From Escherichia coli (lineage in GTDB: Bacteria; Pseudomonadota; Gammaproteobacteria; Enterobacterales; Enterobacteriaceae), in NCBI RefSeq assembly GCF_030013205.1, contig NZ_CP122648.1: a stretch of DNA of 64,000 bases, one strand, 5' to 3'. Each line of letters starts with the position of its first letter. Position 1 is the first letter of the stretch. The position numbers are program-made. Below are positions 3,001 through 4,614 of the stretch, in pieces.

Positions 3001-4614
3001 TATTTAAATTTGAAAGGAACTCTTTATGAGTGAAATGGTATTTTGTCGCGGATGCGGCAAGGAAATACATAAAGATGCCACATCCTGCCCCAATTGTGGA
3101 GCACCTCAAAGAACAGCAAGTTCAAAAAGCAGAATGACAGCCGCACTACTGGCTTTCTTTTTAGGTGGTCTTGGAGCACACAAATTTTATTTAGGTAAAG
3201 TGGGGCAAGGATTCCTTTACCTTATTTTTTGCTGGACATTCATTCCGGCAATCGTGGCATTTATTGAGTTTTTTATCTATCTATGCACCTCTGATGAAGA
3301 CTTTGCCCGCAAATATGGCTAATGCCTAGTGGGCGAATCAGAATGACAAACCCGCAGCGTAAAAACTGCGGGTTTTCTTTTTGCTACCCTCACAAATGAG
3401 GACACCATACATAAGCAATAGGCATAACAGATCGATGCAATAAATCCGATCGATAAAAACGATCGATTTGTTATCATATCGGCAGCAGTAACCACACAAG
3501 AGGTGCCGCAAATGACGCAAAATGTACGATGCAAAAATTGCAACAAACTACTTGCCCGCGCCTCATTTCACTACATTGAAATAAAATGTCCGCGCTGCAA
3601 AACACTTAACCAGATAACGAGAGCCATCGAGCACCCCACACACATGAGGAGTTATGACCGTGGGGATCGCAATCCAGCACCAACCAGCACATATACCGGA
3701 ACACACTAAGGTTTATCAGACTGACAATGCCACGCTCTGTCGTGGGAATGCGCTGGAAATATTGCCGCTGATTGAGCCAGAAAGCATTGATGCCTTAATC
3801 ACTGACCCGCCTTACAGTTCGGGTGCGACACACAAGGCCGGACGCACCAACCAGGGCAGCCATGCAAAATATCTGAACGGCGAGAACCTTCACCGCTTTG
3901 ATGGGTTCGCTGGTGAAAACATGGACGCCCGTTCGTGGGCTTACTGGACACAATTATGGATGGCACAGGCACACCGTGCAGTCAGGCCGGGCGGTTATGC
4001 CCTGGTATTTACTGACTGGCGACAACTACCAGCTTTAACCGATGCGTTTCAGGCCAGTGGCTTTACATGGCGCGGCATCATTGCGTGGAACAAGGGGAGG
4101 GGGTCACGAACACCCCATACGGGGTATTTCAGGCATCAGTGCGAATACATCGTCTGGGGCAGCAAAGGCCATTTAGATAAATCGCCTTCGGGGCCGTTCG
4201 ACGGTTGCATGACGTACCCGGTTATCCCGTCAAAGAAAATGCACCCGACCGGAAAACCAGAAGAACTAATGGCGGAACTGGTCAGGACTGTGAATAGTGG
4301 CGGAACAGTCCTTGATCCTTTTATGGGGTCAGGGACAACGGGTGTGGCTGCACTGAAAGCAGGGCGAAAATTTATTGGTATAGAAACCAGTGATCATTAT
4401 TTTGAGGTAGCAGCGCAGCGGCTTCGAGAGACTATTACCACAACCATTTCGGCTACATAAGACAAAGCCCACATTTTTTTGCGGGCTTGTATATCATTAC
4501 TGATGTGGACAGTTTGTGGATGTTTATAAGAAATAAGCTAATAGAAACAATTCGTTAGCTTTACAAAAAACGCGCCCGAAGGCGCGTTGGCGATACACTC
4601 AATATAAAGGACTA

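What the first reader, a model, noticed from the sequence alone, without database searches (positions are those of the whole stretch)
4461..4611. Candidate element boundary next to the raiA terminator
The 150 bp between the methyltransferase stop and raiA contains a weak hairpin and AT-rich sequence and abuts the raiA terminator directly. If the accessory segment is an integrated element, its attachment-site repeat should lie here.
Basis: inference. Interest (0 to 1): 0.3.

Follow-up and report, generated by a model that had tools for sequence, protein, structure and literature searches.

The report
Prophage right end at raiA terminator
The interval is the right-hand attachment site (attR) of a 34.6-kb P2-family prophage that inserted into the transcription terminator of raiA and its sRNA RaiZ and rebuilt that terminator; this is an ordinary, well-understood kind of phage boundary.

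Summary
Window 4461-4611 lies between the last phage gene, a DNA methyltransferase (stop at 4460), and raiA (4612-4953, minus strand). It is AT-rich (34% GC up to 4562) and holds a hairpin at 4465-4488 and the raiA terminator at 4563-4588.

The attachment-site repeat is the terminator itself. The sequence ACAAAAAACGCGCCCGAAGG(C)GCGTTG at 4563-4589 recurs 34,630 bp upstream in the source genome (E. coli ETEC4079), outside the window. That copy lies between pheL and a P2-type tyrosine integrase and has T at position 21.

Joining the two host flanks gives a sequence 100% identical to sister strains. The site is uninterrupted in 5273 of 5426 complete E. coli genomes, including K-12. There the core covers the 3' end of the annotated sRNA raiZ.

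The phage side of the interval has the layout expected of a P2-type attP arm. Two TGTGGA repeats 11 bp apart (4504 and 4515) match the published P2 arm-site consensus and are mirrored beside the integrase. An IHF-like site lies at 4545-4557.

124 genomes carry this arm next to raiA. No excised attP form was found.

Verdict: an ordinary prophage boundary, and a new member of a known kind. Low interest.

The parts
1..4562 (+). Right-hand ~4.5 kb of a 34.6-kb P2-family (Peduoviridae-like) prophage. It holds tail/baseplate genes and then a cargo block: hok/gef 2750-2890, a TM2-domain ORF 3026-3322, a com-like zinc ribbon 3512-3709, and a DNA methyltransferase 3654-4460. The prophage continues beyond the left end of the window.
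   Evidence: The window is 100% identical to E. coli ETEC4079 NZ_CP122643.1. The annotated locus runs int, C, cox-like, replication endonuclease, ogr, portal, terminase, P2-family capsid, tail genes and cargo between pheL and raiA.
4465..4488 (.). Hairpin just after the methyltransferase stop (AAGCCCACA / TGCGGGCTT). It is the probable terminator or insulator at the outer edge of the attP P arm. A G-to-A change weakens it in this strain.
   Evidence: The stem is perfect in ETEC1716, A2 and FHI_NMBU_10. Hairpins sit at the same position in the flk-site phage and in Klebsiella phage 3LV2017.
4504..4522 (+). Two direct repeats, aTGTGGACa and tTGTGGATg, with starts 11 bp apart. They are candidate arm-type binding sites for the integrase N-terminal domain (P arm).
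   Evidence: This is the only TGTGGA pair 8-14 bp apart in the 64-kb window on either strand. The only other such pair in the 47-kb locus is the mirror pair in the P' arm, L001 9775/9786. [quoted passage not shown] They are invariant in four lysogens. Binding was not tested.
4535..4561 (.). A 7-bp inverted repeat, AAGCTAA/TTAGCTT, encloses an IHF-like sequence AAACAATTCGTTA (4545-4557). The sequence lies between the arm sites and the core.
   Evidence: This is weak evidence: the match to WATCAANNNNTTR has one mismatch, and 64 such matches occur in the window against 49 expected by chance. The position is as expected for P2-type attP, which uses IHF (PMC3936717, reference list).
4563..4589 (+). 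attR core (common core O): ACAAAAAACGCGCCCGAAGGCGCGTTG. The first 20 bp (4563-4582) are identical in attL, attR and attB. Position 4583 is C in the host and attR but T at attL.
   Evidence: The same T at attL and C at attR are seen in the two other lysogens for which both junctions were read, A2 and FHI_NMBU_10; ETEC1716, read at attR only, also has C. Empty-site genomes match attL-side DNA exactly up to L001 9685.
4563..4588 (-). Intrinsic terminator of raiA and of the 3'UTR-derived sRNA RaiZ. The stem is AACGCGCC/GGCGCGTT, the loop is UUCG, and a U-run follows. It is fully preserved after integration.
   Evidence: The terminator scan is and the fold. The K-12 raiZ annotation ends 2 nt inside the core.
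4565..4726 (-). raiZ homologue (the ProQ-dependent sRNA processed from the raiA 3' end).
   Evidence: It is 162/162 identical to K-12 raiZ b4805. RaiZ biology is described in PMC5391140. No Rfam model matched.
4612..4953 (-). raiA (ribosome-associated translation inhibitor). It is the first host gene to the right of the prophage.

Best explanation
Window 4461-4589 is attR of a P2-family temperate phage. A P2-type tyrosine integrase, encoded at the far end of the prophage next to pheL, recombined the phage attP with the bacterial attB.

The attB is the 27-bp raiA/raiZ intrinsic terminator, which lies directly upstream of the pheL promoter. Strand exchange took place inside the 20-bp block of perfect identity (4563-4582). 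It was most likely around the hairpin loop, with the two stem arms serving as inverted core-type sites.

Because the phage carries its own copy of the terminator, integration leaves two products:
- a complete raiA/RaiZ terminator at attR;
- a near-copy at attL in front of an intact pheL promoter.
No host function is disrupted.

The rest of the interval (4461-4562) is the phage P arm. It consists of an outer hairpin, two arm-type integrase sites one helical turn apart, and an IHF-like bend site.

Excision would need Int, IHF and the phage's Cox-like protein acting on attL and attR.

Shown here: the repeat, the junctions, the empty site, the integrase family and its catalytic residues, and the distribution among genomes. 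Inferred by analogy with P2: protein binding to the arm, core and IHF sites, the position of the overlap region, and present-day excision competence.
For: - Repeat and junctions.
- Empty site: the reconstructed attB is 100% identical over 600 bp to sister pig ETEC strains. It is contiguous in 5273 of 5426 genomes and in K-12.
- Element content: a full P2-like gene set with the integrase adjacent to attL.
- Integrase family: Pfam Int_N and Phage_integrase. PDB 5c6k scores E 1.6e-96 with 52% identity over 282 aligned positions, and HP1 integrase scores E 8.9e-43. 5C6K is Peduovirus P2 Int (PMC13239906). All seven catalytic residues listed there align to R194, E197, K217, H268, R271, H294 and Y303.
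- Arm sites: paired TGTGGA repeats occur only in the two arms and match the P2 consensus tgTGGaCa (PMC3448106).
- Same layout elsewhere: Klebsiella phage 3LV2017 has an integrase 64% identical, depositor-annotated attL and attR on a terminator-like hairpin, and GTGGATG pairs 11 bp apart.
- Crossover position: both other lysogens with both junctions read have T at attL and C at attR, and a third, read at attR only, has C. This places the crossover left of 4583.
- Distribution: 121 genomes have int plus attL next to pheL, and 124 have the P arm next to raiA.
- Excisionase: a Cox-like gene lies beside the repressor. A near-identical copy is annotated 'Cox family DNA-binding protein'.
Against: - No contiguous attP (P arm, core, P' arm) was found in IMG/VR, JGI metagenomes, the phage collection, PLSDB plasmids or complete E. 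coli genomes. The excised or virion form is therefore reconstructed, not observed.
- The IHF-like site is no better than chance would often give.
- Binding sites and the overlap region are assigned by analogy only.
- About 28 genomes with an interrupted raiA-pheL spacer do not carry this P arm. What sits in them is unknown.
Confidence: 0.93

Rival explanations
1. The att sites are real, but the prophage is now a fixed, non-excising resident. Under this reading 4461-4589 is a relic boundary rather than an active recombination site.
For: No attP junction was found in any collection searched. One relative, K_EC180, has only about 21 kb between attL and attR, so decay does occur in this lineage. 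The outer hairpin carries a destabilising mutation in this strain.
Against: The integrase is full length with all catalytic residues. The gene set is complete from int to the tail genes. The att arms are almost invariant across lysogens from pigs, humans, cattle, a platypus and seawater. That pattern points to recent horizontal spread rather than vertical inheritance of a relic.
Confidence: 0.2
2. There is no insertion. The 34.6-kb segment is ancestral and was deleted in K-12 and most other strains by recombination between two terminator-like repeats.
For: A deletion between direct repeats would also leave a single repeat copy.
Against: The segment is a complete phage genome with its integrase beside one repeat. 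It is absent from 97% of genomes across the species. Sister strains identical over the flanks lack it. The phage-side arms carry paired integrase-type sites. The T/C difference sorts consistently as phage side versus host side.
Confidence: 0.01
3. The repeat is a target-site duplication made by a transposase, or a chance similarity between two GC-rich terminators. It is not a site-specific recombination core.
For: Intrinsic terminators do resemble one another. A weak Rfam hit to an unrelated sRNA terminator (STnc130) falls on the same 26 nt.
Against: The repeat is 27 bp with one mismatch, and no match appeared in 100 shuffles. The junctions with host DNA are exact to the base. There are no terminal inverted repeats and no transposase. 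A tyrosine integrase is present. The same junctions occur in independent lysogens.
Confidence: 0.01

Closest known systems
Bacteriophage P2 site-specific recombination system (Int, IHF, Cox; attP with a ~27-bp core and paired arm sites)
   Same: - The integrase is 52% identical to P2 Int with the same catalytic residues.
- Two direct arm repeats of the tgTGGaCa type lie on each side of the core.
- The target is intergenic and not a tRNA, as reported for P2-type integrases (PMC3448106).
- A Cox-like gene and a C-type repressor sit next to int.
   Different: - The core sequence and chromosomal site differ. The sites catalogued in PMC3448106 are at MG1655 2165238, 4104392, 950293 and ileY/ileX, whereas this one is at 2737518-2737544.
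- The structural genes are only distantly related to sequenced phages. The best capsid match is 59% identical, to ESSI-2-like phages.
- The replication module resembles P88/Xuanwuvirus at ~94% DNA identity.
Klebsiella phage 3LV2017 (Reginaelenavirus) attachment module
   Same: - It carries the closest integrase among sequenced phages, 64% identical.
- Its core is also a GC-rich terminator-like hairpin followed by a T-run.
- GTGGATG repeats 11 bp apart lie in both arms.
- A hairpin lies outside the P-arm repeats.
   Different: The hairpin sequence, the host gene and the host genus all differ.
Phages that integrate into the 3' ends of small stable RNA genes and restore them (186 in tRNA-Ile, HP1 in tRNA-Leu, Fels-2 and SopE-phi in ssrA; the sdsR locus as a phage attachment site)
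   Same: The core overlaps the last 25 nt of an RNA gene, raiZ, and the phage copy rebuilds it. The literature basis is PMC3448106 and PMC3333887.
   Different: The RNA here is a 3'UTR-derived, ProQ-associated sRNA that shares its terminator with an mRNA (PMC5391140). It is not a tRNA or tmRNA. The core covers only the terminator hairpin.
Lambda attP/sib arrangement
   Same: The integrase is heterobivalent, with arm and core sites. A structure downstream of int differs between the free and integrated states: the int-sense hairpin is -17.7 kcal/mol in the reconstructed attP and -11.5 kcal/mol at attL.
   Different: There is no evidence of RNase III retroregulation, and the integrase subfamily differs. 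This is an analogy only.

Membership tests
Prophage attachment site (attL/attR pair made by site-specific integration) | A direct repeat of the core at both ends of the element | tested here: met
   The 27-mer lies at window 4563-4589 and at L001 9659-9685, with 26 of 27 bases identical. No other copy exists and none is expected by chance.
Prophage attachment site (attL/attR pair made by site-specific integration) | An empty site with a single core copy and contiguous flanks in related genomes | tested here: met
   The site is contiguous in 5273 of 5426 genomes. Sister ETEC strains are 100% identical over 600 bp, and K-12 also has the empty site.
Prophage attachment site (attL/attR pair made by site-specific integration) | An integrase gene adjacent to one end | tested here: met
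   The integrase is at L001 9772-10761 on the minus strand, 87 bp from the attL core.
Prophage attachment site (attL/attR pair made by site-specific integration) | An observable excised form (a contiguous attP) | tested here: not met
   No exact or near match to the reconstructed attP was found in IMG/VR, JGI metagenomes, phages, plasmids or E. coli genomes. Absence from databases does not show inability to excise.
P2-type integrase / attP architecture | A tyrosine recombinase of the P2/HP1 clade with the R-E-K-H-R-H-Y catalytic set | tested here: met
   PDB 5c6k (P2 Int) scores E 1.6e-96 and 1aih (HP1) scores E 8.9e-43. The catalytic residues align to R194, E197, K217, H268, R271, H294 and Y303.
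P2-type integrase / attP architecture | At least two direct arm repeats of consensus tgTGGaCa on each side of the core | tested here: met
   The P-arm repeats start at 4504 and 4515 and the P'-arm repeats at L001 9775 and 9786, each pair 11 bp apart. These are the only such pairs in the locus and the window. The consensus is from PMC3448106.
P2-type integrase / attP architecture | An IHF site in the P arm and Cox sites for excision | tested here: inconclusive
   A one-mismatch IHF-like site lies at 4545-4557, but such matches are common. A Cox-like gene is present. Cox boxes were not identified. An AAAACCCACT triplet in the P' arm is a candidate.
P2-type integrase / attP architecture | Int binding and strand exchange at the core | not testable with these tools
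   This needs footprinting or in vitro recombination. Sequence data only restrict the crossover to 4563-4582.
Integration into an RNA gene 3' end with restoration | The core overlaps the 3' end of an annotated RNA gene, and the gene sequence is unchanged in the lysogen | tested here: met
   K-12 raiZ ends at 2737542, while the core spans 2737518-2737544. The window copy of raiZ is 162/162 identical.

The most novel reading that the evidence does not exclude
This integrase lineage may specifically read intrinsic-terminator hairpins as attB, using the two stem arms as inverted core-type sites. Two of the three att modules examined have such a core.

The phage's own variant of the raiA/RaiZ terminator may also have a regulatory role. 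In the circular attP form, an extended palindrome (TTTACAA...TTGTAAA) gives a strong hairpin after int. At attL the hairpin is weakened by an A-C mismatch and no longer scores as a terminator. Transcription of int in the prophage could then read into the pheL-pheA leader, or int mRNA stability could differ between free and integrated states, in the manner of lambda sib.
Probability: 0.1. Interest if true: 0.4.

Novelty: new member of a known kind. Interest (0 to 1): 0.15.

Why it matters
The result fixes the exact right boundary of the prophage in this window: phage DNA ends at 4562-4582. It also adds the raiA/raiZ terminator, between raiA and pheL, to the list of P2-family attachment sites in E. 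coli. About 2.3% of complete genomes use this site.

For annotation, everything left of 4563 is phage and raiA, raiZ and pheLA are intact. For biology, it is one more case of a temperate phage choosing a conserved RNA 3' end or terminator and rebuilding it, this time for a ProQ-dependent 3'UTR sRNA. None of this challenges current understanding.

Tried and rejected
- **Second repeat copy inside the window.** There is none; the window begins inside the prophage. The source genome supplied the other end.
- **Contiguous attP.** I searched IMG/VR, JGI metagenomes, GenBank phages, PLSDB plasmids and complete E. coli genomes, and found nothing. The single plasmid hit is a Salmonella IncHI2 plasmid carrying pheA-pheL-attL-int, which is an attL, not an attP.
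- **Rfam scan of 4300-5300.** It gave only sub-threshold noise and there is no RaiZ model.
- **Small ORFs in the spacer.** Only mechanical ORFs of 23-25 aa turned up.
- **Sigma-70 promoter scan of the spacer and of attL.** There were no calls.
- **Literature searches for a described raiA/pheL (yfiA) phage attachment site.** I found none. Karlsson et al. 2006 was not available.
- **Terminator targeting as a general rule for this backbone.** I rejected this idea. The flk-site relative (L006) has no obvious terminator at the expected core position.

Full report
**What is at the coordinates**

The window is 100% identical to E. coli ETEC4079, a pig isolate (NZ_CP122643.1). Window position x corresponds to x + 39726 in the 47-kb source locus L001.

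The spacer 4461-4611 lies between a DNA methyltransferase ORF and raiA. The methyltransferase is 3654-4460 on the plus strand (Pfam N6_N4_Mtase). raiA is 4612-4953 on the minus strand.

The spacer is AT-rich, with 34% GC over 4461-4562 against 51.7% for the window. It holds a 9-bp hairpin with one mismatch at 4465-4488. It also holds the raiA intrinsic terminator, with stem 4569-4576/4581-4588 and T-run 4563-4568 on the minus strand.

**The element**

In the source genome, pheL and raiA are adjacent in K-12 but here are separated by a P2-family prophage. Its gene order is:
- integrase, C-type repressor and a Cox-like protein;
- replication endonuclease, ParM and partition genes, and ogr;
- portal, terminase, scaffold and a P2-family major capsid;
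- tail genes;
- a cargo block of hok/gef, a TM2-domain protein, a Com-like zinc ribbon and the methyltransferase.

The window begins inside the tail region, so the far end of the element is not in the window.

**The repeat**

The longest match between the pheL-int spacer and the methyltransferase-raiA spacer is 20 bp exact. It extends to 27 bp with one mismatch:
- attR, window 4563-4589: ACAAAAAACGCGCCCGAAGG-C-GCGTTG
- attL, L001 9659-9685: ACAAAAAACGCGCCCGAAGG-T-GCGTTG

The pattern occurs once in the window and twice in the locus. It occurs in no shuffles, even with three mismatches allowed. The two copies are 34,630 bp apart. The repeat is the raiA terminator read on the opposite strand.

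**The empty site**

Joining the pheL-side flank to the raiA-side flank through one core copy gives a 600-bp sequence. It is 100% identical to several sister pig ETEC strains and is contiguous in 5273 of 5426 complete E. coli genomes.

K-12 MG1655 has the same single-copy arrangement. Empty-site genomes match the attL side exactly up to L001 9685, the last base of the repeat. attL is therefore host-core-phage and attR is phage-core-host, with junctions exact to the base.

In K-12 the core is 2737518-2737544. The annotated sRNA gene raiZ (b4805) ends at 2737542. The window copy of raiZ (4565-4726, minus strand) is 162/162 identical. RaiZ is the ProQ-dependent sRNA processed from the raiA 3' end (PMC5391140).

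The phage thus targets the shared raiA/RaiZ terminator and restores it completely. On the other side, the TTGACA hexamer overlaps the core edge by one base and remains joined to pheL at attL. I recall this hexamer as the pheL promoter -35; that identification was not tested here.

**The recombinase**

The 329-aa integrase has Pfam Int_N and Phage_integrase domains. It matches PDB 5c6k at E 1.6e-96, with 52% identity over 282 aligned positions, and HP1 integrase at E 8.9e-43. 5C6K is Peduovirus P2 Int (PMC13239906). Its seven listed catalytic residues align with R194, E197, K217, H268, R271, H294 and Y303.

**The phage arm inside the interval**

PMC3448106 reports that P2-type attP sites carry at least two direct repeats of consensus tgTGGaCa on each side of the core. 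The interval contains aTGTGGACa (4504) and tTGTGGATg (4515), 11 bp apart and 40-59 bp from the core. The P' arm contains two ATGTGGATG repeats 11 bp apart (L001 9775 and 9786), overlapping the end of int.

These are the only TGTGGA pairs at 8-14 bp spacing on either strand of the 47-kb locus and the 64-kb window. They are invariant in every lysogen junction examined.

Between the arm sites and the core lies a 7-bp inverted repeat around AAACAATTCGTTA (4545-4557). This is a one-mismatch match to the IHF consensus. Such matches are frequent, 64 observed against 49 expected in the window, so it is only a positional hint.

The outer hairpin (4465-4488) is perfect in other lysogens. It has counterparts at the same position in two other att modules. 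It probably insulates attP from read-through out of the cargo genes. That role is an inference.

**Crossover position**

In ETEC4079, A2 (platypus) and FHI_NMBU_10 (human), attL has T and attR has C at core position 21; ETEC1716, read at attR only, also has C. The host attB has C. Exchange therefore occurs within 4563-4582.

The hairpin dyad supplies natural inverted core-type sites. An overlap centred on the loop, about 4575-4582, would end just before the polymorphic base. That is an inference.

**Distribution and relatives**

- 121 genomes have int plus attL beside pheL at 98.8% identity or more among the 60 listed. 124 have the P arm beside raiA. The hosts are very diverse.
- 152 genomes have an interrupted site, so about 28 are unexplained.
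- Among sequenced phages, only the replication module is close: P88/Xuanwuvirus, about 94% DNA identity.
- The best capsid match is 59% identical, to ESSI-2-like phages.
- The closest integrase, 64% identical, is in Klebsiella phage 3LV2017. Its depositor-annotated att core is also a terminator-like hairpin, flanked by GTGGATG pairs.
- The same backbone occurs with a different att module next to flk in E. coli SC418. Homology to the window ends at 4423.
- The known P2-like sites listed in PMC3448106 are elsewhere on the chromosome.
- Literature searches found no description of this site.

**What was not found**

No contiguous attP turned up in any collection searched. Current excision competence is therefore inferred from intact genes and near-invariant arms, not observed.

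**Verdict**

The interval is a textbook P2-type attR whose core is the raiA/RaiZ terminator. It is useful for annotation, mildly interesting as an sRNA-terminator attachment site, and mechanistically ordinary.

Noticed in passing
window 1920-4460; L007 2420-6502: The cargo block next to attR holds hok/gef, a TM2-domain protein, a Com-like zinc ribbon and a methyltransferase. In other lysogens of the same phage it is replaced by a SufA-like gene, a YafO toxin and an ATP-dependent nuclease, leaving only a 3' methyltransferase remnant. The region looks like a variable moron or defence hotspot.
   Followed up: partly
window 3512-3709 and 3654-4460: A Mu Com-family zinc-ribbon ORF overlaps the start of an N6/N4 DNA methyltransferase by 56 bp. 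The arrangement resembles Mu com-mom, but the downstream gene is an ordinary methyltransferase rather than Mom.
   Followed up: no
L006 (E. coli SC418, NZ_LR778147.1) 6940-7260: The same phage backbone and cargo sit next to flk with a different attachment module. That module has a hairpin followed by TGTGGTCA and CGTGGACA repeats 11 bp apart. Homology to the window stops at 4423, inside the last codons of the methyltransferase.
   Followed up: partly
L012 (Salmonella IncHI2 plasmid pS2122_1, NZ_CP110658.1, 126998-130317): A 272-kb Salmonella plasmid carries pheA-pheL-attL-int-repressor-cox of this prophage. Its integrase protein is identical to the one here. A chromosomal junction fragment has apparently been captured on a plasmid.
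   Followed up: partly
L001 9679-9772 (P' arm, outside the window): There are three copies of AAAACCCACT, two direct and one inverted. Together they form a 13-bp-stem hairpin just downstream of int. They are candidate Cox-binding sites or an int terminator.
   Followed up: no
reconstructed attP (window 4551-4582 joined to L001 9679-9697): Only in the attP configuration does an extended palindrome, TTTACAA...TTGTAAA, bracket the core. The int-sense RNA hairpin is -17.7 kcal/mol in attP and -11.5 kcal/mol at attL. The attL copy no longer scores as a terminator.
   Followed up: partly
E. coli genome collection: About 28 of the 152 genomes with an interrupted raiA-pheL spacer lack this phage's P arm and integrase. 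Their occupant could be another element, an IS or a rearrangement; it was not identified.
   Followed up: no
NZ_CP062203.1 (E. coli K_EC180) 1228472-1249590: attL and attR are only about 21 kb apart in this strain. It carries a deleted derivative of the prophage with identical att arms.
   Followed up: no
PDB 9i5v chain 14: A 401-residue chain labelled 'Ribosome-associated translation inhibitor RaiA' matches the tyrosine integrase (E 2.3e-9). The label is probably an oddity and is unrelated to the locus.
   Followed up: no
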